From: Somniosus microcephalus
Taxonomy: Eukaryota
Direction of reading: 5' to 3'
NCBI GenBank assembly: GCA_052327205.1
Contig: CM126208.1
Location: 193,068,001-193,132,000, forward strand
Length of the DNA stretch: 64,000 nt
Part shown: one piece after another, positions 13,266-43,567 of the stretch
Numbering within the stretch: position 1 is the first letter of the stretch
Layout of the letters: each line of letters opens with the position of its first letter
Position numbers and translations under genes: made by a program
Notes under the pieces: model-generated
What the model saw: only the letters and a program-made list of their open reading frames with translations
Database searches by the model: none
Told to the model about the DNA's origin: nothing

Positions 13266-13554
13266 TGATGTGCCTCAATAATTCCGAGACTCGATGTTAG
13301 CGAAACAAAACAAGGCTTTTATTAACTTAGAAGGTAACACGTAGTGGAGAGAGGTATCTTCCATCCGGAGGGCTGCAGTACTGGATATGAGGCCAGACTG
13401 AGCTTGCTTACATAGGGGCCAGGTATGGGTGGAGCCCTACACACAACACATTCCAATATACAATACAATGGTGAGGAAACGGAACTGGGGGAAGGGAAAT
13501 GAAACTGAAACCGACCACAGTCACAGGCAGTGATGAATGGGATATTTCATCACA
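13266..13554 (-). mobile_element. Solo LTR (289 bp)
   Basis: TG...CA termini and 5-bp TSD AGGTC/AGATC. Removing it restores the Penelope ORF (RILRSTLNGM). AATAAA on - strand. Confidence 0.8.
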
Positions 13555-15511
13555 AGATCCACGCTCAACGGCATGTGCCGCCACATGAACAATGTCGACC
13601 TTTCTCTTCAGCAGCACCGATGCACTCTATTTCAAAGCTGTCCGGGTCCACAGTTCCATTTCATCCTTCGACTCATCCGACGCTTCAACAAAAAACTTTT
13701 TTTCTTCCTTTCTGATGTCAAGGATCGCAAGCTTCATCAACTCTTGGACACTAACGCCCCTTCAGAACCTTCTTCCCCGTTACTTTCCTCTGATCCCATC
13801 CCTTCTTCCAATCTCACCCCCTGTCGTGTTTTCACTATCCCCTCTGACCTTCCCCTCTCTGACCCCGAACGATCAGTCCTCAGCAAAGGCCTGAGCTTCA
13901 TCCCCTTACGCCCCCATCTGAATGAATTTCGAGCTCGGCATGATGCTGAGCTCTTCTTCCATCGCCTTCGTCTCCGTGCCCACTTCTCTGGCCAGGAGTC
14001 TAACACTTTAACAGTTTCCAGTTTCCTGACCCCAACCATCTCCTTTTCACGATGGACATCCAATCCCTCTACACCTCCATCCTCCACCAGGACGGCCTTT
14101 GGGTGCTCTGTTTCTTCCTTGAACAGAGGCCCACCCAGTCCCCATCCACTACCACCATCCTCCGCCTGGCTGAACTTGTTCTCACATTCAACAACTTCTC
14201 CTTTGACTCCACTCCCTCCAAATTAAAGGTGTTGCTATGGGAACCCCCATGGGCCCTAGCTATGCCTGCCTGTTCATGGGATATGTGGAACATTCTTTGT
14301 TCCAGTCCTACTCAGGTCCCCTCCATCACCTCTTTTTCCAGTACATCGATGACTGACTGTATTGGTGCCATTTCCTGCTCTCGCCCTGAACTAGGTAAGT
14401 TCATTCACTTTACCTCCAATTTCCACCCTTCCCTCACCTTCACATGGTCCATCTCCGACTCTTCCCTTCCCTTCCTTGACTTCTCCGTCTTCATTTCTGG
14501 CGATCGGTTTTCGACAAACATCCACTACAAGCCCACCGACTCCCACAGCTACCTGGACTACACTTCCTCCCACCCCGCTTCCTGTAAGGACTCTATTCCA
14601 TTCTCCCAGTTTCTCCATCTCCGCTGCGTCTTTTCTGACGATGCCACCTTCCATACCAGTGCTTCCGACATGTCTTCCTTTTTCTTCAACCGAGGATTCC
14701 CCTCTACTGTGGTTGACATGGCCCTTGACCGTGTCCGTTCTATTTCCCGCACTTCTGCTCTCACCCCTTCCCCTCACTCCCAGAACCACGATAGGGTTCC
14801 CCTTGTCCTCACCTTTCACCCCACTAGCCTCCACATTCAACGGATCATCCTCCGCCATTTCCGCCACCTCCAACGTGATCCTACCACCAAACACATCTTC
14901 CCCTCACCTCCCCTTTCAGCATTCCGAAGGGACCACTCCCTCCGCGACACCCTGGTCCACTCCTCAAATCACCCCCAACAGCCCTTCTCCTACACCTGGC
15001 ACCTTCCCGTGCAAGCGCAGGAGATGCAACACATGCCCTTTTACCTCCTCCCTTCCCACTGTCCAGGGCCACAAACACCCCTTCCAGGTGAAACAGCGAT
15101 TTACTTGTACATCTTCCAATTTAATATACTATTGTGGCAGAGCCACTGAGGGAATCTGAACAACTGTACATAATTCCCTTTAATGATGTGTTAGCTACAG
15201 ACTAAATCTGTACCATTGTATATACTGTTTGCATGTACAGTGTGCGGCCCCTTTAAGAACGCGGGCAAACGCAATGACGTCATGCCGCTAATCACGTGAT
15301 CACCCAAACACGGGAAAAAGGTGATGACGTCATGACGCCATCCACGGGACCGCCCAAGCAGTCCTCGTGGAGCCTCCAACCTGTTAAGACCTGTATTCAT
15401 AGTTCTCTTGCATCAATCTGTTTAAACTCGTTAGTTTGACATTAAAAACCTTTTTGATTGATTGCCTGTGTCGAACTCAATCTCTAGATAGGAATTTGAC
15501 CATTCCTACAT

Positions 15512-15557: not shown

Positions 15558-18500
15558 ATGGAGGCAAATGCCGTTTCCTTGAAGCTGCCGCAGTTCTGGG
15601 AGCAACAAGCAACCTCATGGTTCATCCAAGTTGAAGCCCAGTTCGCCCTGAGAGGCATCATTGAGGATCAGACCCGATACTTATACGTGGTCTCCGCACT
15701 CGATGGCTCTACCGCCTCGTGGATCGTCAGTCTTCTCGGGAATCCCCCAACTGACAGCAAGTATGAGACCCTCAAGGCGCGGTTGCTACAGGTTTTCGGG
15801 CTCACAAAATCAGAGTGCGCCCGTCGGCTGCTCGCTATGCCCGGGCTCGGGGACTCCAAACCTTCCGAGCTGATGAGCCAAATGCTCACACTCCTCGGCT
15901 CCGAACCAGAATGCTTTCTCTTCAGAGAGTTATTCCTCAGCCAATTACCGGAGCAAGTGCAAGCGGCCTTGGCGAGATCCGAGGTCGAAGACTGCGCAGC
16001 GCTCGCTGCCGAGGCAGACAAAATATTCGCAGTTACGCAACAGTACTGCGCTGCCATGAGGCGCCCATCCCCCACAGACGCCGCCCCAGCTCCTCAGCCC
16101 ACGGGGCTGTGCTTCTACCACACGTGGTTTGGCGTGAAGGCGAGATGTTGTCGCCCTCCCTGCAGCTTCTCTCAAAAAAAAAACAACAACTCCGTCCAAT
16201 GCAGAACGGGTCTAACGGGTGCCCCGCGGCCGCGATGGCAATGCAGGCAAGCTGCTCTTCATCACAGATACCCTCTCCGGTTGTCGGTTCCTGTGCGACA
16301 CCGGAGCACAGTGCAGCATTCTACCAGCGTCAGCTCTGGATGTACAGGCCGGGAAGCACGGCCTCCCCCTCGAAGCGGCTAATGGTGGAGCTATTCGGAT
16401 CTTCGGCAGACGGCGGGTCTAGGTGTGCTTCGGCGACCAGCGGCTTTTCTGGGAATTCGTTATGGCCAAGGTTTCGCAAGCCATTCTCGGTGCAGATTTC
16501 CTGTGCGCCAACGGCCTCCTGGTCGATGTAAGGAACCGGCGGCTGATCAACGCGGCCACGTTTCACTCTATCATTTGCCACCATAGTAACACCATGTCGC
16601 GCACCGTCTCCTGCGCTTTCCCGACTCCGAATGAGTTCGCTCGCCTGCTAGGCGAATTTCCAGACCTGACCAGGCCCACGTTCTCCTCCGCGGCCACGAA
16701 GCATGGTGTGGAACACCACATCACCACCACCGGCCCCCCGGTCCACGTGCGGGCCTGCCGCCTTGAACCTGGCAAGCTAGCGGTCGCGAAGATGGAGTTC
16801 GCTACAATGGAACGCTTAGGGATTATTCGCAGGCCGAATAGTCCCTGGTCTTCACCTCTTCACATCGTTCCAAAACCTGGCGGAGGATGGCGGCCCTGCG
16901 GCGACTATCGGCGCCTAAACGCCGCCACCACTCCTGATCGATACCCGATCCCCCACATTCAGGATTTCTCTGCCCATTTGGCAGGAAACAATTTCTTCTC
17001 CAAGGTCGACCTCGTCCGGGGCTACCACCAGGTCCCGGTGCACCCGCAGGACATCCAGAAGACCGCAGTCATCACCCCATTCGGCCTTTTTGAATTTCTG
17101 CGCATGCCTTTCGGCTTAAAGAACGCTGCCCAGGCTTTCCAACGCCTGATGTATTCCGTGCTGCGGGACCTCAACTTCATCTTCATCAATCTGGATGACA
17201 TTTTGGTCGCCAGCCCCACCAAAGAGGAGCATCTTTGCCATCTGCGCACCCTTTTTCAACGCCTCAGCCAACACGGCCTGATTATCAACCCGGCTAAGTG
17301 CCAGTTTGGCCTGCGACAAATCGATTTCCTGGGGCATCGCATCACCGCAGAGGGAGCAGTTCCCTTGCAGGCGAAGGTGGAGGCGGTGATACACTTCCCA
17401 CACCCGCAGAACAGAAAGGCTCTGCAAGAATTCCTAGGCATGGTGAACTTCTTACCACCGTTTCGTGCCTAGGGCAGCACTGCTCATGCAGCCCCTGTAC
17501 GAGGCCCTCAAGAGCAAGTCCAGCAAGGATCCGGTGGGCTGGACAGTTGACATGGACCGGGCATTCACCGACACCAAGAGCGCCTTGGCCAACGCGACCA
17601 TGCTGGTGCACCCGCTACCAGGAGCCACCATCGCCCTCACCACCGACGCGTCCGATTACGCAATCGGCGCCATTCAGGGGCAGTGGGTAAACGGGACGTG
17701 GCAGCCGTTGGCATTCTTCAGCCGTCAACTGTGGCGTAATGAGCGGGCGTACAGTACTTTCGGCAGGGAGTTGCTAGCCCTTTTTCTGGCCATCCGCCAT
17801 TTCCGGTTCTTGTTGGAAGGCCGTCCTTTCACCGCTTTCGTCAACCATAAGCCACTGACTTTTGCCATGGCCAAGACCGCCGAACCGTGGTCACCTCGAC
17901 AACAACGTCAGCTGACATACATCTCCGAATTTACCACAGATATTCAGCACGTGGCCAGTAAAGACAACCTGGTGGCAGATTGCCTCTCCCGCGCGACCGT
18001 GCATGCGGTCCAGCTGGGCATCGACTACGCCCTCATGGCAGCAGACCAAGTCTCAGACCCAGAAGTGCAGGCTTACCGCACCAACACCACTAGCCTCCAG
18101 TTGGCCGACGTCAGGTTCCATTCGGCTGGTACCACGTTGCTGTGTGACGTCTCTGTTAGGGACCCTCGCCCTATTGTGCCGGTCGCCTGGCGCCGCAAGG
18201 TGTTTGACGCCATACATGGGTTGTCACACCCAGGAATGAAGGCTTCTCAGAAGCTTATGTCATCTAAGTTCATTTGGTGGGGCATGCATAAAGATGTCCG
18301 TGACTGGGCCAACACCTGCGTGGTCTGCCAAAAGGCCAAGGTACAGCGCCACGTCAAGGCTCCATTGGCCACCTTTGCAGTTCCTGAGCGACGGTTTGAC
18401 CACGTTAAAGTGGACCTGGTAGGAGCACTTCCACCTTCCCATGGTTTTATGCACATCCTGATCATAGCAGATCACACCACCAGATGGCTGGAGGTGGTTC

Positions 18501-19374
18501 CCCTGTCATCTACTACATCGGCGGACGTGGCTAGGGTGTTCATCTCTTCATGGGTCGCCCATTTTGGAGTGCCTGCTGACATCTCTTCGGACCGGGAACC
18601 GCAGTTTTCCTCTGAACTCTGGAATGCGGTGGCTCAGCGACTCGGTGTCAAGTTACACCGCACCACAGCCTACCACCCACAAGCGAACGGTCTGTGCGAA
18701 CGTTTTCACAGATCACTTAAGGCCGCACTGAGGGCCAGCCTCCAAGACGCTGGATGGGCAGACAAGCTGTCGTGGGTCATGTTGGGCCTTCGCACGGCCC
18801 CCAAGGAAGATCTTCGCTCTTCCGCGGCAGAGCTCATTTATGGTCAGCCACTGCAAGTGCCAGAGGATTTCTTGCCAACACCAACGGAGCCATGGTCCGC
18901 CTCACGCCAGCTTATCAGTCACCAGGAAGCAGCCAGATGTTTCGCGCCGGTTCCCACATTGCATCACGGGTTTCAGGGCTCTCACGTTCCAGCGGAGCTG
19001 AACCAAGCTGACTACGTGTTCACCTGCCACGATGCTCACCAGGATCCACTCAAGCCCCCATACACTGGTCCTTTCCGCATGTTAGAGGCAGGAGACAAAA
19101 CCTTCAAGGTGGATGTCGGTGGTAAACCGGACCACATTTCGGTCGACCATTTGAAGCCGGCACACCTGGACCTCGACCGTCCCGTCGAGACTGCACAGCC
19201 ACCGAGACGAGGTCGGCCGCCCACCGTCGTCACGCCAGAACAAGTGCAACCACCCGCCAGTCCGCCCGCCGTCCAACAGCTTCCGCTTCGGGAATACAGG
19301 AGTCGTTCTGACAGGCTTGTCAGACCCCCTCACCGTTTGACTTTTTCCGTTAAAGACAATTCTGGGGGGGCGCA
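15558..19374 (+). pseudogene. gag-pol (Gag, protease, RT, RNase H, integrase) with a stop and frameshifts
   Basis: LKLPQFW gag start; CFYH...CRPPC; LCDTGA; LDDILV; TDASDYAIGA; HGLSHPG...CVVC; TTAYHPQANGLCER; PYTGPF. TAG at 16420-16422 and frameshift near 17455. Confidence 0.93.
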
Positions 19375-20194
19375 TGTGGCAGAGCCACTGAGGGACTCTG
19401 AACAACTGTACATAATTCCCTTTAACGATGTGTTAGCTACAGACTAAATCTGTACCATTGTATATACTGTTTGCATGTACAGTGTGCGGCCCCTTTAAGA
19501 GCGCGGGCAAACGCGATGACGTCATGCCGCTAATCACGTGATCACCCAAACGCGGGAAAAACGTGATGACGTCATGACGCCATCCACGGGACCGCCCAAG
19601 CAGTCCTCGTGGAGCCTCCAACCTGTTAAGACCTGTATTCATAGTTCTCTTGCATCAATCTGTTTAAACTCGTTAGTTTGACATTAAAAGCCTTTTTGAT
19701 TGATTGCCTGCGTCGAACTCAATCTCTAGATAGGAATTTGACCATACCTACACTGTATTCGCTGCTCACGATGCGGTCTCCTCTACATTGGGGAGACCAA
19801 ATGCAGATTGGGCGACCGCTTTGCGGAACACCTCCGTTCAGTCCGTAAGGGTGACCCTGAGCTTCCGGTCGCCTGTCACTTTAATTCTCCACTTCACTCC
19901 CACTCTGATCTCTCTGTCCTCGGCCTATTACATTGTTCTAATGAAGCTCAACGTAAGCTCGAGGAACAGCAGCTCATCTTTTGATTAGGCACTTTACAGC
20001 CTGCCGGACTCAACATTGAGTTCAACAATTTCAGATAATAATCCCTGCCCCCATTTTTCATGCAGTATGATTTTGCCATTCCCATTTGCAACATTTTCAC
20101 AGCATGTTCTTTCAATTCCTTCCTCCCCTCCTAAACCACACCCCCCCCACCTGTCTCTGCACCTGCTTAATATCTGTTACATTTCCAGCTTTTT

Positions 20195-20883: not shown

Positions 20884-22029
20884 ATGGGGGCTGTATGGGG
20901 GGCCAACCCTCAGTTGCAGCATTATGTGCGAAGGGCTCGCAGACGCTGTGAGAAAGGGCCAGCCATGCCGAGACGCAGAGGGGCCATCAGGCGTCGGCAA
21001 CGTAGGCCTTACCCACTCAGGCAATACCGGCAGCAGGTGTCCTATCTCACCATGACTGCGGCGCATTGTGTGAAGAGGCTGCGCTTCAGAAGGGAGGTGG
21101 TTGCAGAGATCTGCCAGCTGCTTCACACAGATCTGCGTCCACAGCTGATGTGCAGGACGTCTCTCTCGGTGGAAGTGAAGGTCACGGTGGCTCTGAACTT
21201 TTATGCAAGCGGCTCCTTCCAAGCCGTTGCTGCGGACATAGCGAACATCTCCCAGTTCGCCGCGCATCGCTGCATCCGGCAGGTCACCGATGCACTTTAC
21301 GCGAGGAGACACCAATTCATCTCCTTCCCCATGACCCGACAGAGGCAGGAGCAGTGTGCAGTCGGATTTGGCAGGATCGCGGGCTTCCCCATGGTGCAGG
21401 GCGCCATTGACTGCACGCATGTGGCTATGCGGGCACCTATCCACAATGCCGAGGATTACCGCAACCGGAAGGGCTACCATTCCCTAAATGTACAGCTGGT
21501 GTGTGACCACAGGCAGCGCATCCTAGCTGTCAATGCCCACTTCCCAGGAAGCAGCCACGATGCATTTATCCTGCGCCAGACTACTGTGGCTGACATGTTC
21601 CAGGCACAGCCTCCACCAAGGGGATGGCTTATCGGGGACAAGGGCTACCCTTTGTGTACATGGCTCATGACCCTGCTCCGCGCGCCCAGGACCCCAGCGG
21701 AGGAGGCATACAACGAAAGCCATCAAGCCACAAGGAACATCATCGAGCAAACGATAGGCGTCCTCAAGTAACGGTTCCGCTGCCTGGATCGTTCCGGAGG
21801 ATCTCTTCAGTATTCGCCGGATAGAGTCTCCCAGTTCGTCGTCGTGTGCTGCATGCTGCACAACCTGGCTATCCGCAGGACTCAGGCACTGCCACCTGGC
21901 ATTGCACCACCACCTCAGGAGGACGAGCAGGAGGAGGAGGAGGAGGAGGAGGAGGAGGAGGACCAGCCCAGGAGGGAGCGACAAGGGCCAAGGGCCGTCC
22001 GCCGGGGACTTATTGATCGACACTTCTAG
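20884..22029 (+). pseudogene. Harbinger DDE transposase with a single nonsense codon
   Basis: GAIDCTH, GSSHDA, GDKGY, IEQTIG and CCMLHN all in one frame; TAA at 21769-21771 replaces Q of LKQRF. Confidence 0.93.
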
Positions 22030-24506: not shown

Positions 24507-26808
24507 TGCTCCAGGTGCTATTTTGGCACACCAGTAGTGCGGAGGCCTAGCTGCAGGGCTCCAGTATGCAGGGCGTGGCAGCAGTCAAAGTTGACCCTTC
24601 CCCCTTTAAGAGCTGGCCGGCGTCAGAGTGTCTGCTGTCAATCAAAACATGACCGCACCTGCGCTGCGCCCGGCTTCGGCGTTATTAGGCCGCATCGCCG
24701 GCTTAGCGCCGGAACACAGCATTTCAACGCCAGTTTCAGCGCTCGGCCAAACTTAGGGCCAACTCTACTGAATTTCGGCGATGTGGCCTACACTTTCCGG
24801 CGGCCGCTAACTTTAGCGAGCGCCCGACTTTAGCGCCCCAAAAGTGTCCAGACTGAATTTCTAGGCCATAATGTATTCAGCTTGTAATACATTAACATAA
24901 ACATAATCATAATAAAGTGCATTGGCAGATGTGCAGGCTTTAGAGTTTATTTGTGGAGTTCAGTAGGATGACAGCCCTGGGAAAGAAGCTGTTCCTAAAT
25001 CTGGTCGTACGGGTGCGAATGCATCTGTAGCGTCTCCCAGATGGCAGGAGGGCGAACAGACTGTGGCTGGGGTGGGTAGGGTCTTTGATGATGGACCGTG
25101 ACCTCCGTAAACAGCGTTTCTGGTATATGTGCTCTATGGTCAGTAGCCGGGTGCCGGTAATGCGTTGGGCAGTTTTGACTACCCGCTGCAGGGCTTTCCG
25201 GTCATAGTAGCTACAGCTGCCATACCATACTGTGATAGTTTGTCAGGATGCTCTCTATTGTGCAGCGGTAAAAGTTAGAGAGGATCAGGGGTGACAGGTT
25301 ACATCCCTTCAGCCTCCTTAGGAAATATAGGCGCTGCTGGGCCTTCTTCACCAGAGAGGAGGTATTGAGGGACCAGGAGAGGTCTTCCGTGATGTGGACT
25401 CCGAGGAACTTAAAGCTGTCCACCCTTTCCACCACAGCCCCATTGATGTGGATGTGGGTGTGACTTCCGCCTTTAGACTTCCTGAAGTTCACAATGATTT
25501 CTTTGGTTTTCTTGATGTTAAGGGCCATGTTGTTATCGGCGCACCACTTCACGAGATGCTGGACCTCCTCCCTGTAGGCTGACTCATCGTTGTTGGTGAT
25601 CTGGCCTACTACCGTGATATCATCTGCAAACTTGATGATGGTGTTGGAACCATGAACAGCCACACAGTCGTGGGTGAAGAGGGAGTAGAGGAGGGGGCTC
25701 AGCACACATCCTTGTGGGGCCCCCATGTTCAGGGTCGGGGGGGGGGGAGGTGTGGTTACCTAATTTGACAGACTGGGGTCTGTTTGTTAGGAAGTCCAGG
25801 GTCCAGTTGCAGAGGGAAGTGTTCAGGCCAAGAGTTTGGAGTTTGGTGGCCAGCTTGTTGGGGACGATAGTGTTGAATGCTGAGCTGTAGTCTATGAACA
25901 GCATTCTGATGTAGGTCTCCTTACCATCTAAGTGATTCAGTGCCGAGTGTAGAGCAGTTGTGATTGCATCCTCCGTTGATCTGTTTGCACGATAGGCAAA
26001 CTGGTGTTGGTCAAGAGAGGCGGGAACACTGGCTTTGATGTGAGCCAGGACCAGTCTCTCGAAACACTTCATTATGATGGGTGTGAGTGCGACAGTTCGA
26101 TAGTCGTTCAGGCACGTCACAGCTGTTTGTTTTGGCACAGGAATAATGGTAGCGGTCTTGAAGCATGTAGGGTCTACTGCCTGGGCCAATGACAGATTGA
26201 AGATGGCGGTGAAGACATCAGCCAGCTGATCAGCACATTCCTTGAGTACCCGTCCAGGGATGCTATCCGGTCCAGCAGCCTTTCGTGTGTTCACTCCGCG
26301 TAGAACACTCTTTACATCGGAGGTCGACAGAGCGAGCACCTGGTCTTCCAGGGGTGGCAAGCCTTTGGTAGCCGGCTCCCTGTTGTCCCTGTCGAAGCGA
26401 GCGTAGAAGTTGTTAAGCTCCTCCGGAAGGGAGGCATCGCTAACCGGGGGGCTGGTGTTTTTGCCCTTGTAGTCAGTGATGGACTGGATGCCTTGCCACA
26501 TGCGCCGGGGGTCCGAGTTGTTGTGGAAATGATCCTCTATCTGCAGTGTCTGTTTCCTTTTGGCAGTCCTGATACCCTTTTTTAGGTTGGTCCTAGCTGC
26601 ACTGTAAGCCGCCGCGTCGCCAGATTTAAATGCTGCGTCGCGTGCTTTCAACTGCCTGGCCTGCTGAGTATATCCAGCATTTTCTGTTGTTATTTCAAAA
26701 TGTACATGTTTGGTCTTTGCACTCATTGTTGCCTTGACCAGCTTAGGGGTTGCGGGATGGTTTCATTCAGGTTGTTTGAATGGCAGAAGCCATTCCCTCA
26801 GAGGGGGC

Positions 26809-27952
26809 CTAGAAGCGACTTGCTATGAGCCTTTGACGGACGGCCCTTCCACTTTGTGCCTCCCTCCCACCTTGGTGCTGCTGATGATCATCCTCCTCAT
26901 CTTCCTCCTCCTCCTCCTCCTCTGCTGGTGCTCCAATGTCTGGTGGCATTGGCTGGGTCCTGAGGATTGCAAGGTTATGCAGCATACAGCACACAACAAC
27001 GAAGTGGAAGACTCGCTCAGGCGAGTACTGCAGGCCTCCTCCAGAATGGTCCAGACAGCGGAACCGTTGCTTGAGCACGCCGATTGTGTGCTCAATGATG
27101 TTCCTGGTAGCTTAATGGCTCTCGTTGTATCGTAGCTCAGCAGGGGTGCTGGGCGAACGGAGCGGTGTCATCAGCCAGGTACACAGAGGATATCCCTTGT
27201 CCCCGAGAAGCCAACCTCCTAGGTGATGCGGTGCCTGGAGAAGGTCTGCAACAGAAGTCTGGCGCAGGATGAAGGCATCGTGGCTGCTGCCTGGAAAGTG
27301 GGCATTGACAGCGAGTATCAGCGGTCTGTGGTCACAGACCAACTGGACGTTTAAGGAATGGAAGTCCTTTCGGTTGCGGAAATCCTCGGCATTCTCTTGC
27401 GGCGCCCGCAAAGCCACATGTGTGCAGTCAATGGCGCCCTGCACCATGGGGAAGCCCGCTATCATCGCAAAGCCCATTGCGCATTCTTGCTGCTTGGCCG
27501 GGGTCATGGAGAAAGAGATGTACTCTCGTCTCCTTTTAAAGAGGGCATTTGTTACCTGACGGATGCAGCAATGCACCGCCAACTGGGAGATATTGGTGAT
27601 GTCCCCAGTAGCTGATTGAAATGAGCCGGTGGCATAAAAGCTGAGAGCCACTATTATCTTCACTGCCACTGACAGAGACATCCTGCTCCTCAGTTGAGGC
27701 TGCAGATCTGGCTGAAGCAGATGGCAGAGCTCAGTGACCACCTGCTTGCTGAATCGCAGCCTTCGCAAACACTGCTCCTCAGACATATTAATGTAGGAGA
27801 ACTGTTGGCGAGAAACCCTGGGAGGGTAAGGTCTCCTGTACCGAGGCCTGTTGGCCCTCCTCCGTCTGGCCATGATTGCCACACTCTCTCCGTCTCTGTG
27901 CCCTCCGAATGTGATGGAGAAGGACGACGTTCCCATTCATTGCAGCCCCCAT
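26809..27952 (-). pseudogene. Harbinger DDE transposase of element B with a single nonsense codon
   Basis: GAIDCTH, GDKGY, IEHTIG and CCMLHN in one frame; TAA at 27112-27114 replaces Q of SHQATR; small frameshift in the N-terminal extension. Confidence 0.93.
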
Positions 27953-29990: not shown

Positions 29991-31962
29991 TGATGTCGTT
30001 TTCAGGAAAAATGTTTGTATTGCAAGATGATTTTACAATTGAGAAGACACCAGCGAGGCTATCACAACTGTTCCACAATCCATACCTTGTTTGATTCCCA
30101 TTTAAACTGAACCTTTAGTGCATCAGCACATCCAAAGAAACAGAAAATCCTTGTAACGGCCATTTAAGTCGTCAGTTCAGACACCGAAAGAAAGCTTATT
30201 GTTGCAGTAAAGCTATGCAGAACTCAGGAATAGCTTTATTGACCACATACAACACTTAAAATGAATTTGAAATAACAATTAAAAATTAAAATGCTTTACA
30301 TCTGCTCACCGCAATTCATGGGTAAAATTAAAGTATTTTCCCTTGATTCTTAAGTCTAAATGTCCTTTTTGGAGGCAATGAAACATTAAAAATGACTGAT
30401 TTCTGATTGGCAGTCAGTAATTCCAATGATTGCTTTTGCTACCAATTGTTGATTAATATAATTAATGCTGGCATGTGACCTTTTGTTGCGATCTTTACAG
30501 GTCTTGAAATACTTGCAGCCCCATTGTGACCAGACAAAACAATTTGTCTGTAGTACGGTGAGGATTGAAATGACATCTGCCTTATGATTTTACTTTCCAG
30601 TGTGCGGTACAAATAGAATACAGGATAAGAAGATGTGGGATACAATCTTTATCGCACTTGTGGCACTTGCTGTAGAATTTGTGTCTCCCAATCATGTCAA
30701 TTCACTTGCAAGATATCCAAGGTATCCTACCACTCCTGGATACGTGGCATCCATATCTCAAATAGTATTTCAAATTCCAATGTAATAGCCATCAAGAACA
30801 GCTTCTAAGAATTGATTTGTTCTCCATGGGTATTCTCAAATGTGCAACTGGAATCATTGTACGATGTCAACAAGAACCAAAGCATTTTCAAACTTGCACG
30901 GTTAAGTAAACTCCATTATAGTACTGTACGCAGGAAGTTTTAGACTATACTGGATCTTTATTTCAGTTCATTCATTAGAAGCTGTTCTTGTTGCTTAAGG
31001 AGAAATTTTCAATATAAATGTAGGAAGAGATTTTCCTTGAGTCTGTGCGCAGGTTCACTGGATGATGTGGGCACAGGAAATATTGTAAAATCAAGCAGTT
31101 GTGTGCACCTTGCTTGAAAGATGTGCAATATTTTGAAGGTATTTTGAAAATTATACAATGGAAAATCTACATTTGACGTGAACTCTTATTAAAGAAGTAA
31201 ATATTATTTTTAAATACTACTTCCCTAATATTACATATAACCTACTGAAGAGGTGAATCCCTACTTTAAGGTTAAGTTTTGTATAAAAATTAAACTCAAA
31301 TATCTGATCTCAGCCACAGCAGCTGTACGCTCCTGCAATTTGTCTCAGTGCAGTTTGGTTAAGGAAAGAAAAATAATTGACCAGGGCTCTGTTAAGTATG
31401 TGTATTGTATTGAACAATTAACACAAAGACTTAAACGTATAACTCAAACAGGTCTTTACTGGTTGGAGGTAGGGACTATACATAGGTCTTTACTTCATGC
31501 CCACAGGCGGGAACTGAGGGGAGATCAGTACCCACAGTACTATTTATACCCCTATGGCCAGGAGTGGTACTGCGTATCACTACGCCCAACAAGTAGTGCA
31601 GTCCTGTCCATAGGTTCAAAGTAGCACACATATTACATACACAACATTCCTCCCTTCCTAGCTTTACAGTCATCTCCCCATTTAACATAACGTAATAACA
31701 TATATACATATATAACTTCAGGTTTACATAACAGAATAACATAGATACATAGATAACTTCATGTCAAAACAGATCACAGATTCAGTCTCTGCGGAAAACA
31801 GTTCACAGATTCAATCTCTGTGGTGGAGTCGGTTCACGTTGCTGGAGTGACTCATTCAATAGTCCTTCCATGGATTTAACAGTTTGAACTTCCGAACTGA
31901 ATTGGCTCCGTTCGGAGGGACCACGTGTGTGATCTGGTAGAGGTAATAATGGTTCAGATGGG

Positions 31963-34161
31963 TCATCTTCTGTTTCGACTTTTCCTTTTCTGCTTCTTGG
32001 AGACTCTCTGGGCTCCACTGTCAGCTGCCAGCTGCATGCGCAGTTCCTCCTTCTCTCCCTCCTTTTTCCGTAGTAGAGCCACCTTCTCCCGATGTTCCGT
32101 AGACTTTCGGTGCTCCTCCATGATTTCTGTATGGTGGGAGTCGAAGTTACAAGTTGGGCAGGACAGGACATAGTAATATTCGGTGTCGTCCCGATCTAGG
32201 CCAGCGAGAGGGTCTTCTATTTCCTCCATACCCAGCTGGGCGTTAGCCAGCTTTTGTTCCAAGTCCAGACATCTTTCCTGAAGAGACTTCTTCATGCGTA
32301 CCTCTTCATCCAGCTTTTTCTGGGCTTTCAGCAAGTCGTTTACTAATGACCTCATTTGAGATTTTACTACTTCAACTTCTTTTGGAGATTGATTGATCGG
32401 ACTATTCAATCCCTCTACCGGAGCAGCTGTTTCAGCGGTCTGTTGTTCTACGTTGACGTGAGTCAGCGTACTTTTGGCATCCAAGGGCTGCTCTGTTGCA
32501 GTCATCTCAGTCTGTGTTGCCACCTCAGCTCTTCCAATAACCTTTGAGAGCTCCGAACCCCTTTCGTTTGAATATTGAAGTTCGTGTTCAAGTTTTTCCC
32601 ATTTCAGAGTCCTGTCCTTCAGCATATGCAGGAGTTGGCTGACCGTTAACTCCTCTGACATCAGACGTTTTGTGTGCTCCTGCTCCATTTTCTCCATCAG
32701 CTGCTTCTGTTGTCTTTCCAGATTCTCCAACTCTATATCAAAGAACTCTTTCGTTGCATTCAACTCTTGCTCACAACGGCGAAGCATTTGTTCTAATTGC
32801 TGTTGTAGTTTGAAATGGAGTTGAGTTCGAGCCCGGTGTCCCTCAGAAATGGGCACATCAGTAGACTTGCCAGACTCAGAATCCACAGTTAAACTATGTT
32901 GTTGTTGCTCAGTGGAATTCTGTGCTGAAACTTTGTCTTTTGCACCCGAGTTGGGCTTACCATCATCCGTTCCAGAGTCTGGGCCGACTATCTTCACCGA
33001 GTTCTCACTCGTTATTGTTTGTAGGAAATGCCAGTCCATATTCATTTTCCTAATCCACTCCCGTCCTAGTAGTGGAGAACCTCCTTCAGATATCACATAT
33101 AAGTCCATTATTTGACTGTCTTCGCCCTTGTGGACCACTGCAACCTCTATTTTCCCGATGGGGTACACTCTTTGCCCCGTGTATGTTTTCAATATAATCC
33201 CCGTATCCTGTAGGGGAATATGTTGGAATAACTTTCCGTAATCTTTCTTATTTATGACTGTCAATGCCGATCCAGTGTCCAATTCCAGTTTTACTTGGAC
33301 TCCTTCTATCTGAAGAGTGACCCAAATTGTCTGGAGGTCTGCACCCTTACCAGCGTTGAGTACTCTTAAGCTAGCCAGTTCATTACAGCTTAAGCTAGCC
33401 AGTTCATTACTGCTAGCGTCTGAATCGGACTCCTGTTCGGTCACCTTGTGTACCTTTGCGTATTTTCCTTGCGGTGACTTCTTGTTGCTGGTCTTCTTCC
33501 CTGACCTGCATACTCTAGCTATATGTCCAAGCCTACCACAAGTTCTACATTCTTGGTTTTTAAACCAACACTGGTTCTGATCATGCGTTGTCTTTCCACA
33601 ACGATAACATTTGCCAGAACTCACACCCAATTTGTGTGCACTGAGCTCCGGTGACCGTAGCTGCATTACTGCCGTGCCTCTCGCTGCGGCTTCGTGTGCT
33701 GCTGCCATAGTGACTGCCTTCTCAAGCGTCAGCTCATTCTCCTCTAGCAGTCGCTTTTGTGTATCCTGTTTAAATAAACCACACACAAATTTGTCTCGAA
33801 GTGCCTCTGTCAGTCCCGTTCCAAACTGGCAATATTTCGCTAATTTACGCAATTCCAGCAAATAATCAGCATTGCTTTCATGCTGTAGCTGCCTTCTGTC
33901 GTAAAATTTAAATCGTTCCGCTAGCATCAGCGGCGTGGGGTTTAGATGATCTTTCAGGACAGTAACAATCTCATCGAACGTCTTATCCGCCGGTTCATCT
34001 GGTGATAACAGGTGTTTCAATTGCCCGTATGTCTTCGCACCCATTAAATTTAATAATGTTAGAGCTTTATCTTGGTCATGAATTTTATTGGCCTTACAAT
34101 AATTTTTTACTCTTTCAACATATATGGCCCAATCTTCGAGGTCACTATCAAAGGTGCTCAT
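31963..34161 (-). CDS. Gag-protease fusion with STK10/SLK-like coiled coil, optineurin-like segment and U1-type zinc finger (732 aa)
   Basis: Uninterrupted ORF. Mag gag ([20 protein letters not shown]), two CCHC knuckles aa185-218, LDTGS and LLGREW protease motifs, then non-pol coiled-coil segments. Confidence 0.9.
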
Positions 34162-34747
34162 ATTCCCGTGTTTAGGTATTGTAGATTTGCAATTTCTCAG
34201 ATTTTATTTTGTTTACTTGTTATCAAAGATGGCGGCTTCCCGCTCTTGCCGTCGTCCTCCGCCCACAAAATGGCGGTTTTCCCGCGCTTGGCGGTCTTCA
34301 CCCGTCCCCCGACGCCGTCTCCCTTCAGCCCCCGAGTGCGGCCCTTATCTTTGGTTCCGATCGCTGGCCCACGCTGCGCCTCGCACTTGAAGCGGCTCCC
34401 GGCCTCTGGCTCACCCGCTCGCGCGGCTCTTGCTCGCTCCCTCCCGGGCTCTGGCTTACCCGCTCGCGCGTTTCACCGCGGCTCTTATCAGGGATTGCGA
34501 TCGCCCTTATCTTCTCCAACTTCCCCAGCCCTGTCTTTGCAGCCGACACTGCACGGCTTACCCCACCACCTAGGTTGAACAAGGAAACTGCAGAAAGACT
34601 TCTGTCAGTCGCTGGAAGCTGTCAGGATGTTTGCTGCACTCCAGTGCTCAGTCGCTGATGGAGGCTTCAGAGTCCTAAAGCCTGTCGCTTCTAGTGGGGT
34701 GGTGATGTTTGAAACCTCTCTTCAACTGCCGCAGGGTAAGAACCTGA

Positions 34748-34757
34748 CTCGTCGCCA
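34748..34757 (-). promoter_or_regulatory. Primer binding site, tRNA-Ser(GCU)
   Basis: TGGCGACGAG 1 nt after the 5' LTR. Confidence 0.8.
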
Positions 34758-35357
34758 GTGTTAAGTATGTGTATTGTATTGAACAATTAACACAAAGACT
34801 TAAACGTATAACTCAAACAGGTCTTTACTGGTTGGAGGTAGGGACTATACATAGGTCTTTACTTCATGCCCACAGGCGGGAACTGAGGGGAGATCAGTAC
34901 CCACAGTACTATTTATACCCCTATGGCCAGGAGTGGTACTGCGTATCACTACGCCCAACAAGTAGTGCAGTCCTGTCCATAGGTTCAAAGTAGCACACAT
35001 ATTACATACACAACAGGCTCCATCTCCTAATCACCAAACGGCAATCCTGTTCAAAATACTTGGGGAAAGGATCAGCCACGATACCTCTAATGGTCAAAAC
35101 GCATGCTGATACACAACATCTAACCTTGCCTATGAATAATGGCCACTTGGACGAGGTACCTGTTACCCACTGAATTGTATCCCAGCACATACTCATGACA
35201 CACATTAAAGAGATATGGAGAAAGAAAGGAGGAAGAAGGGAAAAATTAGTGGAAAAAGGAGGACAAAATAGAATTGTAGAATTGACTGAAACTGTATGTC
35301 TCAGTTAATAGTTTTTATATTTTATACTTTCATGCACAGGACAGTTTTCTGTATAGT

Positions 35358-36589: not shown

Positions 36590-38125
36590 AGGATCCCAAA
36601 TTCTCAGAGGGTTGGGGAATAGAACTTGGGAAAATAAAATGGACAACAATATTGGCAAACAATGATATAGAACAGCAATGGGAAACATTTAAAACAGGGT
36701 TCAACAGAGTCCAAGAAAAATATATTCCGCTAAAAGACAAGAATAAGCTAAACACTAATGAGACACCAAAGGATGAATAAAGACATAAGGGAAACATTGA
36801 GGGTAAGGAAAGAGGCATACACTAAATAAGTGGACAGCAGGGGAGCATGACAAGGGAGAATACGATGAAATTAGGAGAGAAGCCAAAAAAACAATTAGGA
36901 TAGCAAAGAGGAACTATGAAATTAAATTATCAAGGAACATAAAACAAAATAGTAAAATATTCTACAGGCACATAAATAAAAAAGGAAAGTCGGGATGGGA
37001 ATGGTCAGGATAAAATCGCAGGCAGCGATAGCGAAATGACAGAAATAGTAAATAATTACTTTGCTTCAGTATTTGCCAGGGAAACAGATCAGGTGGACAT
37101 GACATCGGAAGATGAGATTAGAAATGATATAATCACATTTAAAATAAAAAGGGGAAAAATATTAAATAAATTAATCAAACTCAAAGACGATAAAACTACT
37201 GGTCCGGATGGATTACATTCAGACATTTTAAAAGAATCTAGGGAAGAGATTGCAGAGGCACTATTACACATTTTTAATAATTCATTAGATAAAGGTGTAT
37301 TGCCAGAGGACTGGTGGATAGCTAACGTAATACATATATTTATGAAGGGAGATAGAACATGCCCAGGGAACTATGGACCAATCAGCTTAATGTCGGTGGT
37401 AGGAAAAATTGTGGAATACCTACTAAAAGAAAAAAATAGAAGAATATCTAGAAACCAAAAATATAATATAATAAATAGTCAGCATGGATTTCAAAATGGA
37501 AAGTCTTGCTTGACCAACCACATTGAATTCTTTGAAGAGGTAACAAAGAGAATAGACAAGGGAATGCAGTAGATGTAATTTATTTAGATTTCCAAAAGGC
37601 CTTCGATAAGGTACCACATAATAGACTAATGAATAAGGTCAGAGAATCCAGAGTCAGGTGACAAGTAGCAGAATGGATAGCAAGCTGGCTTCAAGACAGA
37701 AAGCAGAGAGTAGGGATAAAGAGTAGCTATTCAGAGTGGCAGAAGGTAGAAAATGGGGTCCCACAAGAATTAGTGCTGGAACCACTGTTGTTCATAATTT
37801 ATATTAATGATTTAGACTTTGGAATCAAAAACACAATCTCTAAATTTGCGGATGACACCAAATTGGGGGGATTGTCAATCGTGAGGAGGACCACAACAAA
37901 TTACAAGAAAACATTAGAGACTGGTGAGAATGTGGAACTCACTACCACAGGGAGTGGTTGAAGCAAATAGTATAGATGCATTTAAGGGGAGGCTAGATAA
38001 GCATATGAGGGAGAAGGGAATAGAGGGTTATGCTGATAGAGTTAGATGAGGAAAGATGGGAGGAGGCTCAAGTGGCGCATAAACGCTAGCATGGCCTGTT
38101 ACTGTGCTGTGTATCCTATGTAATA
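36590..38125 (+). mobile_element. CR1 LINE ORF2 fragment with internal deletion and 3' UTR
   Basis: [63 protein letters not shown]; stops and frameshifts. Confidence 0.9.
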
Positions 38126-42720: not shown

Positions 42721-42783
42721 GTGGAGAAATGCATAAAGACACAGCTTATATAGTCAGAGAATCATGTTAGATGTTTACAGGTA

Positions 42784-43567
42784 CAGGTTTACAGGACACC
42801 TACAGACACTGAAAGACGCCCTTGTAAGAACGGGATATGACGCTCGACTCGTCAATCGACAGTTCCGACGGGCCACAGCGAAAAATCGCATAGACCTCCT
42901 CAGAAGACAAACACGGGACACAACCAACAGAGTACCATTCGTCATCCAGTACTTCCCCGGAGCGGAGAAACTACGCCATGTTCTTCGCAGCCTTCAACAT
43001 GTCATTGATGATGATGAACACCTCGCTAAGGCCATCCCCACGCCTCCACTACTTGCTTTCAAACAGCCACCTAACCTCAAACAGACCATCGTTCGCAGCA
43101 AATTACCCAGCTTTCAGGAGAACAGCGACCACGACACCACACAACCCTGCCACAGCAACCTCTGCAAGACATGCCAGATCATCAACACAGATACCATCAT
43201 CACACGTGAGGACACCACCCACCAGGTACATGGTACATACTCATGTGACTCGGCCAACGTTGTCTACCTCATACGTTGCAGGAAAGGATGCCCCGGAGCA
43301 TGGTACATCGGCGAGACCATGCAGACACTGCAACAACGGATGAACGGACACCACGCAACAATCACCAGGCAGGAGTGTTCCCTCCCAGTCGGGGAACACT
43401 TCAGCAGTCAAGGACATTCAGCCTCCGATCTTCGGGTAAGCATTTTCCAAGGCGGCCTTCGAGACACACGACAACGCAAAATCGTCGAGCAGAAACTGAT
43501 AGCCAAGTTCCGCACCCATGAGGACGGCCTCAACCGAGATCTTGGGTTCATGTCACGCTACATGTAA
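42784..43567 (+). pseudogene. Penelope RT thumb / GIY-YIG endonuclease C-terminal fragment
   Basis: Open frame ending GLNRDLGFMSRYM; N-terminus missing. Confidence 0.85.

What the first reader, a model, noticed from the sequence alone, without database searches (positions are those of the whole stretch)
32662..32844. Cargo segment 1 resembles the STK10 (LOK)/SLK coiled-coil (PKK) region
Seen: aa 440-500 [57 protein letters not shown]. From memory, STK10 reads EEHRNQTQL...[42 protein letters not shown], which is a close colinear match. There is no kinase domain, so only an oligomerisation or targeting coil was captured. The Ser-rich linker aa 385-439 may come from the same gene (weak).
Basis: partly seen in the sequence, partly recalled or inferred. 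Interest (0 to 1): 0.75.

Follow-up and report, generated by a model that had tools for sequence, protein, structure and literature searches.

The report
Shark retrotransposon carrying captured circular RNA
This piece of the STK10 gene most likely entered a shark retrotransposon as exactly one turn of a circular RNA, and that lineage went on to pick up pieces of three more genes and spread to several thousand copies, which shows step by step how a circular RNA can be written back into a genome.

Summary
Confirmed and extended. Window 32662-32844 (minus) is STK10 exons 11-12 (Pfam PKK; 80% to shark STK10; 90-93% nt to this genome's STK10). It lies inside a young non-autonomous Ty3/Gypsy-type element (31390-35015; identical LTRs, 5-bp TSD), whose single ORF is Gag-protease-STK10-OPTN-DNAJC21; 3,837 pattern matches genome-wide.

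An ancestral sister family carries STK10 as exon 9'-10-11-12-8-9', 98-99% identical to the host exons. Exon 12's donor is joined exactly to exon 8's acceptor, and entry and exit fall on the same host site (12-nt and 7-of-8-nt microhomology to a pol-bearing parent). That is one full turn of a 1,245-nt, stop-free exon 8-12 circle. Intermediates survive: deletion, OPTN capture (which overwrote the back-splice), DNAJC21 capture, and a titin-like side branch. The window copy keeps the permuted order and the exit junction. The cargo is transcribed.

Not shown: the host circular RNA itself, or any function of the coil (dN/dS 0.6-0.7, not distinguishable from neutral). The coil is most likely a passenger left from a 415-codon capture. 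LTR capture of mRNA and LTR-flanked circRNA pseudogenes are known; my searches found no full-turn, in-frame, mapped case at this scale.

The parts
31390..35015 (-). Whole non-autonomous LTR element (family B), 3,626 nt, TG...CA ends, 5-bp target-site duplication at 31385-31389 and 35016-35020
34759..35015 (-). 5' LTR, 257 nt, 100% identical to the 3' LTR
34748..34757 (-). Primer-binding site-like motif one base inside the 5' LTR; its match to a tRNA-Ser 3' end is recalled, not tested
31963..34161 (-). Single ORF, 732 aa: Gag, protease, then host cargo; no RT, RNase H or integrase
33457..34161 (-). gag with two CCHC knuckles; 89-90% nt to pol-bearing subfamily L105/L106/L110, dN/dS about 0.2
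33037..33321 (-). Aspartyl protease (Pfam hits below curated cut-offs; 91-93% nt to the protease of pol-bearing L105/L106/L110)
32840..33010 (-). Two remnants of STK10 exon 9 (3' part), 87% and 86% nt to host
32662..32844 (-). The finding: STK10 exon 11 (part) spliced to exon 12 (part), start of the first PKK coil, 93% and 90.5% nt to host
32219..32670 (-). Optineurin cargo, four spliced host exons, 81-92% nt to host; 72% aa to shark OPTN 226-384
31972..32217 (-). DNAJC21-derived piece with a decayed C2H2 (jaz-type) finger; assigned through the family C copy; host exon not located
31851..31971 (-). Remnants of STK10 exon 8 (end) and exon 9 (5' part) lying AFTER exon 12, ending at the same exit junction as in family A; out of frame with the ORF and almost all past its stop
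31647..31659 (-). Polypurine tract next to the 3' LTR
31390..31646 (-). 3' LTR

Best explanation
A back-spliced STK10 circular RNA (exons 8-12, 1,245 nt) was co-packaged with the RNA of an autonomous Ty3/Gypsy-type element. During minus-strand synthesis the reverse transcriptase left the element near the end of integrase, landed on the circle at a 7-of-8-nt match in exon 9 and copied once round through the back-splice joint. It came back to its landing site, where RNase H had probably destroyed the template, and returned to the element at a 12-nt match just before RT. RT, RNase H and integrase were replaced, in frame, by one turn of the circle (family A). The product was copied in trans by helpers and remodelled by further microhomology switches: deletion of STK10 aa 479-618 (A'); capture of spliced OPTN, which erased the back-splice joint (D); capture of DNAJC21 (C); more deletions and a gag-protease swap with another helper subfamily (B, the window). 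SHOWN: the sequences, junction positions, microhomologies, shared junctions, copy counts and transcription of cargo-bearing elements. INFERRED: the circular template, co-packaging, RNase H run-off, the order of events and mobilisation in trans. The PKK coil is most likely a passenger kept because an unbroken frame is favoured, not because the coil works (about 0.65 within this reading).
For: Permuted, intronless STK10 (aa 379-707, then 290-387) in 46 of the 47 top-scoring genomic places; the remaining one has a shorter second piece. Cargo of copy L039 is 97.6-99.4% identical to host exons 8-12. The joint sits at exon 12's GT donor and exon 8's AG acceptor in 10 of 10 copies examined, which were chosen as best STK10 hits; 1,105 genomic matches to the joint, 0 for the reversed control. 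Exons 8-12 sum to 1,245 nt with no stop over two turns. The host locus has one copy of each exon. Pol-bearing parent copies L107/L108/L112 are 97.8-98.1% and 96.6-97.6% identical to the two arms. The entry match is the only 12-mer shared by the parent's pol region and the circle; the exit is at the same host site although 91 shared 8-mers were available. No cargo-free deletion form was found (0 matches). All 6 junctions aligned to both donors show microhomology. Intermediates A', D, C and E exist. B shares the deletion joint, the exit joint and 2 of 2 testable non-host letters with A/D/C. By my reading of the translations, 11 of 12 junctions across the lineage keep the frame; 5 of 5 shared indels among 45 B copies are in frame against 6 of 13 private ones.
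Against: The host circle was not observed. Back-splice reads in two RNA runs (76 and 60) come with only 0-4 reads over the exon 9-10 and 10-11 joints, so they are best explained by deleted elements, not by the host circle. Introns 7 and 12 share no inverted repeat at E 1e-5. No paper with the term circSTK10 was found. In the window copy the back-splice joint itself is gone; its circular origin rests on descent. Frame retention can partly follow from microhomology between coding sequences, and the indel contrast is small. The parent has similar motifs at both junction sites, so the entry-exit coincidence need not come from RNase H run-off.
Confidence: 0.85

Rival explanations
1. The template was a linear STK10 RNA with an exon 12-8 joint, from a tandem duplication of exons 8-12 in the gene or from trans-splicing between two pre-mRNAs.
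For: It gives the same joint at exact splice sites, and the circle was not seen directly.
Against: One copy of each exon in 180 kb of host locus; the 11 best-matching STK10 proteins are 966-1062 aa, with no room for a 415-aa repeat. On a linear repeat nothing ties entry to exit, yet they coincide within about 12 of 1,245 nt.
Confidence: 0.08
2. Ordinary linear STK10 mRNA, scrambled by an extra template switch that happened to land on two exon borders.
For: This lineage switches templates often.
Against: The joint has only 2 nt of ambiguity, against 4-12 nt at the other junctions, and it hits a donor and an acceptor exactly; my rough estimate for two such hits by chance is about 1 in 1,000.
Confidence: 0.02
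3. Circular RNA origin, but by a DNA route: a circular cDNA recombined into an already deleted element at one microhomologous site.
For: Would also give entry equal to exit; the parent has similar motifs at both sites.
Against: The predicted cargo-free deleted element has 0 matches at up to 2 mismatches; absence in one assembly is not proof.
Confidence: 0.05
4. On function, compatible with the circular origin: the STK10 and OPTN coils are kept because the Gag-protease-coil protein does something for the element, such as oligomerising in helper particles or binding host STK10/OPTN partners.
For: Two coiled-coil cargos survive several deletions in frame; OPTN piece dN/dS 0.42-0.52 against family D (p 0.004-0.04); stop-free frame of 700 aa or more in 15 of 20 pattern-picked B copies; B is the most numerous type counted.
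Against: PKK piece dN/dS 0.62 against A (p 0.49) and 0.73 against D (p 0.71), while gag is 0.18-0.20. Shared and private variants in the cargo do not differ (Fisher p 0.40-0.74; gag-protease shows no such contrast either, so the test is weak). A Cys replaces Phe inside the coil. A sister branch carries Ig repeats instead, so the cargo type is not fixed.
Confidence: 0.25

Closest known systems
LTR-mediated retroposition by template switching (Tan et al. 2016, PMC5131818; I read sections 8 and 10 and search passages)
   Same: Partial spliced host RNA between discontinuous LTR-element arms, microsimilarity at switch points, multi-gene chimeras, sense transcription, in-frame ORFs, secondary retroposition.
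   Different: Their model and examples, in the parts read, use linear mRNA; the word 'circular' has 0 occurrences and 'Rfwd2' 0. Here the first template is permuted and the lineage numbers thousands with intermediates preserved.
circRNA-derived pseudogenes, mouse circRFWD2 (Dong et al. 2016, PMC4897178; main text part 1 of 2 and three supplement passages read)
   Same: Non-colinear exon junction in genomic copies; 33 high-confidence copies; LTR-rich flanks, with MMERVK10C-int sequence marked in Fig. S1A.
   Different: They state that the mechanism 'remains mysterious' and report no switch points, no full-turn geometry and no fusion ORF in what I read. Here both switch points, the parent element, an in-frame Gag fusion and later captures are mapped.
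Maize Bs1 (as described in PMC5131818 section 10; primary papers not read)
   Same: LTR element carrying pieces of three host genes, with shared switch points among copies.
   Different: One to five copies per genome; no circular template described in that passage.
STK10 (LOK) kinase, PKK coiled-coil region
   Same: Source gene; 80% aa over 64 residues.
   Different: No kinase domain; only about 50 of 139 positions of the first PKK repeat; fused behind Gag-protease.

Membership tests
LTR-mediated retrocopy (Tan et al. 2016) | Intronless partial host sequence between two arms of one LTR element | tested here: met
LTR-mediated retrocopy (Tan et al. 2016) | Microsimilarity at switch points | tested here: met
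   6 of 6 junctions aligned to both donors, 4-12 nt; DNAJC21 and Ig junctions not testable, host exons not fetched
LTR-mediated retrocopy (Tan et al. 2016) | Secondary retroposition as a non-autonomous element | tested here: met
   3,837 matches; distinct 5-bp TSDs read in 15 of 19 copies
LTR-mediated retrocopy (Tan et al. 2016) | Transcription, mostly sense | tested here: met
   Element-type joints in two RNA runs; about 95% one strand over exon 12 in X23, near even in X24; sense is inferred from library convention
circRNA-derived retrocopy (Dong et al. 2016) | Non-colinear exon-exon junction at true splice sites | tested here: met
   Met in families A, A' and E; in the window copy the joint is overwritten but the permuted order remains
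circRNA-derived retrocopy (Dong et al. 2016) | Cargo confined to the circularised exons | tested here: met
   Copy L039 matches exons 8-12 only; no STK10 sequence outside aa 290-708 in the places beyond ragged ends
circRNA-derived retrocopy (Dong et al. 2016) | The parent circular RNA is expressed by the host | tested here: inconclusive
   Back-splice reads are explained by element RNA; host STK10 is barely expressed in the two runs
Ty3/Gypsy LTR retrotransposon | Parent pol order protease-RT-RNase H-integrase, LTRs, PBS, PPT, TSD | tested here: met
Mag clade of Ty3/Gypsy | RT phylogeny; two CCHC knuckles and gag-pol in one frame (features recalled) | tested here: inconclusive
   Two knuckles and a 1,321-aa single frame seen; no RT tree with reference elements was run
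STK10/SLK kinases | N-terminal kinase domain | tested here: not met
STK10/SLK kinases | Complete PKK coiled-coil repeats | tested here: not met
   Profile positions 1-51 of 139, one stretch; host has two

The most novel reading that the evidence does not exclude
The lineage is an RNA-capturing parasite of its helpers in which cargo is selected as protein: a stop-free, translatable host circular RNA was turned into a linear Gag-protease fusion, and successive coiled-coil captures (STK10, then OPTN) raised copy number by changing particle assembly or by titrating host STK10/OPTN partners, with thousands of copies out-expressing the host gene. Full-turn capture forced by RNase H run-off would then be a general, searchable signature by which in-frame circular RNAs become new mobile protein-coding modules.
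Probability: 0.2. Interest if true: 0.9.

Novelty: new variant of a known kind. Interest (0 to 1): 0.78.

Why it matters
How circular RNAs get reverse-transcribed and inserted was left open by the paper that described circRNA pseudogenes (PMC4897178). This case preserves template boundaries, both switch points, the parent element and four later stages, and makes a testable prediction: one turn, with entry equal to exit. It is also fossil evidence for a specific circular RNA in the shark germ line or early embryo, an unusually complete record of serial exon shuffling by an LTR element in a vertebrate, and a practical warning: in these sharks reads on STK10 exons 8-12, and their 'back-splice' reads, come mostly from elements and would be miscalled as STK10 expression or circRNA.

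Tried and rejected
PDB sequence search with the whole cargo: 0 hits at E 1. First OPTN genome search failed on the server and was replaced by a search with the uncaptured half. The PF21884 search found a locus with no match to cargo 3, read as DNAJC2 from recall. The DNAJC21 locus was found at C1:2.65-2.68 Mb but its zinc-finger exon was not in the 70 kb fetched, so those junctions are unmapped. Inverted repeats between introns 7 and 12: none. Cargo-free deletion form: none. The run search listed no indexed RNA holder; the two RNA runs were added by species label. In one search the row 'B PKK vs host' is void (wrong exon 10/11 border) and the script stopped early; the corrected row is (dN/dS 0.42-0.56, p 0.17-0.35, and it includes host-side changes). 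In one search the OPTN-versus-host row covers only 91 codons because of imperfect exon borders, and the pooled copy comparisons are not independent; neither is used. One search left out L131 and L001 (partial) and tandem copies L028-L030; it is limited to 19 and 45 copies because no further genome stretches could be fetched. SLK exons were not fetched, so no STK10/SLK tree was built; 98-99% nt identity of family A to STK10 settles the parent. No structure or complex was predicted: a 60-residue coil fragment would not have changed my odds. Earlier scan findings: nothing by place, words or sequence. Literature searches found no report of this family or of a full-turn capture (listings and abstract starts only, apart from the three papers opened); the library lacks most subscription journals and bioRxiv supplements were closed.

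Full report
OBSERVATION. The segment is real. Window 32662-32844 (minus) encodes aa 440-500 of a 732-aa ORF. It scores above the curated cut-off for Pfam PKK, is 75-80% identical over 64 aa to the 11 best database hits, 9 of them named shark or ray STK10, and passes composition-corrected BLASTP at E 3e-25. I located the host STK10 gene at G000:C8:167,166,244-167,279,477. The segment is exon 11 joined to exon 12 without the intron, 93% and 90.5% identical; the linker in front is two pieces of exon 9. The host is a cartilaginous fish by these matches; the genome is 6.4 Gb.

THE ELEMENT. The ORF lies in an LTR element at 31390-35015 with 257-nt LTRs that are 100% identical, TG...CA ends, a 5-bp target-site duplication, a primer-binding-site-like motif and a polypurine tract. 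It encodes Gag with two CCHC knuckles and a protease but no RT, RNase H or integrase. After the STK10 piece come optineurin aa 226-384 (72% aa; four spliced host exons) and a DNAJC21 zinc-finger piece, assigned through a less decayed copy (E 9e-8). A pattern specific to this type (family B) has 3,837 matches, control 0. Of 19 further copies, 18 had an LTR pair (17 of them at least 98% identical) and 15 gave a readable 5-bp TSD.

THE SURPRISE. Searching the genome with full-length STK10 returned, above the host gene, dispersed places with STK10 aa 379-707 followed at once by aa 290-387 (46 of 47 scored). Ten such copies (family A) are LTR elements with LTR pairs 97.5-99.6% identical and the layout Gag-protease-STK10-integrase tail. 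In copy L039 the cargo is exon 9 (3' part), 10, 11, 12, 8, 9 (5' part), 97.6-99.4% identical to the host. The 12-to-8 joint falls on exon 12's GT donor and exon 8's AG acceptor in 10 of 10 and has 1,105 genomic matches. Exons 8-12 total 1,245 nt and have no stop over two turns. The host has one copy of each exon. This is the signature of a back-spliced circular RNA as defined in PMC4897178.

SWITCH POINTS. A pol-bearing family (15,122 pattern matches across its subfamilies) includes copies 97.8-98.1% and 96.6-97.6% identical to the arms of A (3 of 11 fetched), with RT, RNase H and integrase domains in L107. Parent and STK10 exon 9 share 12 nt at the entry, the only 12-mer common to the parent's pol region and the circle; the exit uses the same host site with 7 of 8 nt, although 91 shared 8-mers exist. 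The cargo is therefore one turn. On a plain linear mRNA, leaving and returning at one site captures nothing. No cargo-free deletion form was found.

LINEAGE. Of 20 joint-bearing copies taken in genome order, 3 hold the full circle and 17 share a deletion of STK10 aa 479-618 (A'); 8 of the 17 also carry an I-set Ig-repeat cargo whose best solved relatives are titin (family E). The deletion joint of non-B type has 2,571 matches. In family D, spliced OPTN aa 131-428 replaces the back-splice joint, in one frame of about 950-1,050 codons (9 of 10 copies fetched; the tenth keeps a shorter OPTN piece). One family C copy adds DNAJC21. B shares the deletion and exit joints and both testable non-host letters with the others, has lost more STK10 and OPTN, and has gag and protease closer to another pol-bearing subfamily (89-93%) than to A's parent (80-83%). 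Its exon 8-9 remnant still sits after exon 12, at 31851-31971. All 6 junctions aligned to both donors have 4-12 nt of microhomology. The order of events is inferred from nested shared junctions, not from a tree.

EXPRESSION. Laid on host exons 8-12, two RNA runs of a species whose DNA runs hold the element (identity with this genome's species not established) gave 76 and 60 back-splice reads, 195 and 134 deletion-joint reads (47 and 17 at the register expected for B), but 0-4 reads per exon 10 joint; 96-99% of reads carry the non-host letter at two sites where host contigs show the host letter. So element RNA dominates and host STK10 is barely seen. X23 is strongly one-stranded, which argues against DNA carry-over; X24 is not. 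The host circle was not demonstrated. The joints also occur in contigs of two other labelled organisms.

FUNCTION. Gag is under clear constraint (dN/dS 0.18-0.20, p below 1e-10), the PKK piece is not distinguishable from neutral (0.62 and 0.73 against A and D), and OPTN is intermediate (0.42; 0.52 after a transition correction, p 0.04). Among B copies, shared and private variants do not differ in the cargo, but they do not in gag-protease either, so power is low. The frame is kept more clearly: 11 of 12 junctions by my reading, 5 of 5 shared indels against 6 of 13 private ones. I conclude that the coil is probably a passenger in an ORF whose continuity is favoured (RNA stability or packaging of the translating RNA; inference). 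A protein role is not excluded.

COMPARISON AND NOVELTY. It is a member of the LTR-mediated retrocopies of PMC5131818 and its ancestor meets the sequence criteria of circRNA-derived retrocopies of PMC4897178, whose mouse circRFWD2 copies have LTR-rich flanks with MMERVK10C-int sequence; a review reads that as a hint of LTR mediation (PMC5408686, passages). New in my searches: a full-turn capture with both switch points and the parent mapped, fusion in frame to Gag-protease, thousands of copies, and preserved intermediates of three further captures. Verdict: new variant of a known kind; interest 0.78.

Noticed in passing
L142, L147, L151, L153, L154, L156, L158, L159: Sister branch of the same lineage with an in-frame I-set Ig-repeat cargo (best PDB matches titin) inserted 70 nt into STK10 exon 8; host gene not located.
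   Followed up: partly
L074-L083 and L062: Families D and C keep the part of optineurin that holds its LC3-binding motif (motif recalled); family B has deleted it.
   Followed up: no
L065/L066, G000:C3:354,658,271-354,658,948: Separate intronless copy of the STK10 3' end (aa 756-980), 98-100% identical to host exons, no gag nearby: a different, probably LINE-made retrocopy.
   Followed up: partly
L027-L030, G000:C3:263,216,090-263,226,376: Four family B copies spaced 3,368 nt apart, about one LTR plus the internal part: a tandem array probably sharing LTRs.
   Followed up: no
L062, G000:C8:167,309,170-167,313,894: A family C copy sits about 30 kb upstream of the host STK10 start codon, on the opposite strand.
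   Followed up: partly
L050:3264-3682 (STK10 intron 10): The intron inside the circle has a GC donor (GC-AG).
   Followed up: partly
window 15558-19447 (+): Unrelated Gypsy-type element in three frames with RT, RNase H and integrase domains.
   Followed up: partly
window 20884-21771 (+) and 27112-27936 (-): Two DDE_Tnp_4 (Harbinger-like, name recalled) transposase ORFs, with possible partner ORFs nearby.
   Followed up: partly
window 25211-26726 (-), 13537-15159 (+), 42764-43567 (+), 37036-37572 (+): Non-LTR retroelement fragments; only the first was confirmed by Pfam RVT_1, the others are recalled resemblances to Penelope-like and CR1-like elements.
   Followed up: no
L103, L140, L141 and family D 3' ends: Derived families carry 3' tails resembling a second pol-bearing subfamily, so arms are swapped between helpers repeatedly while the cargo persists.
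   Followed up: partly
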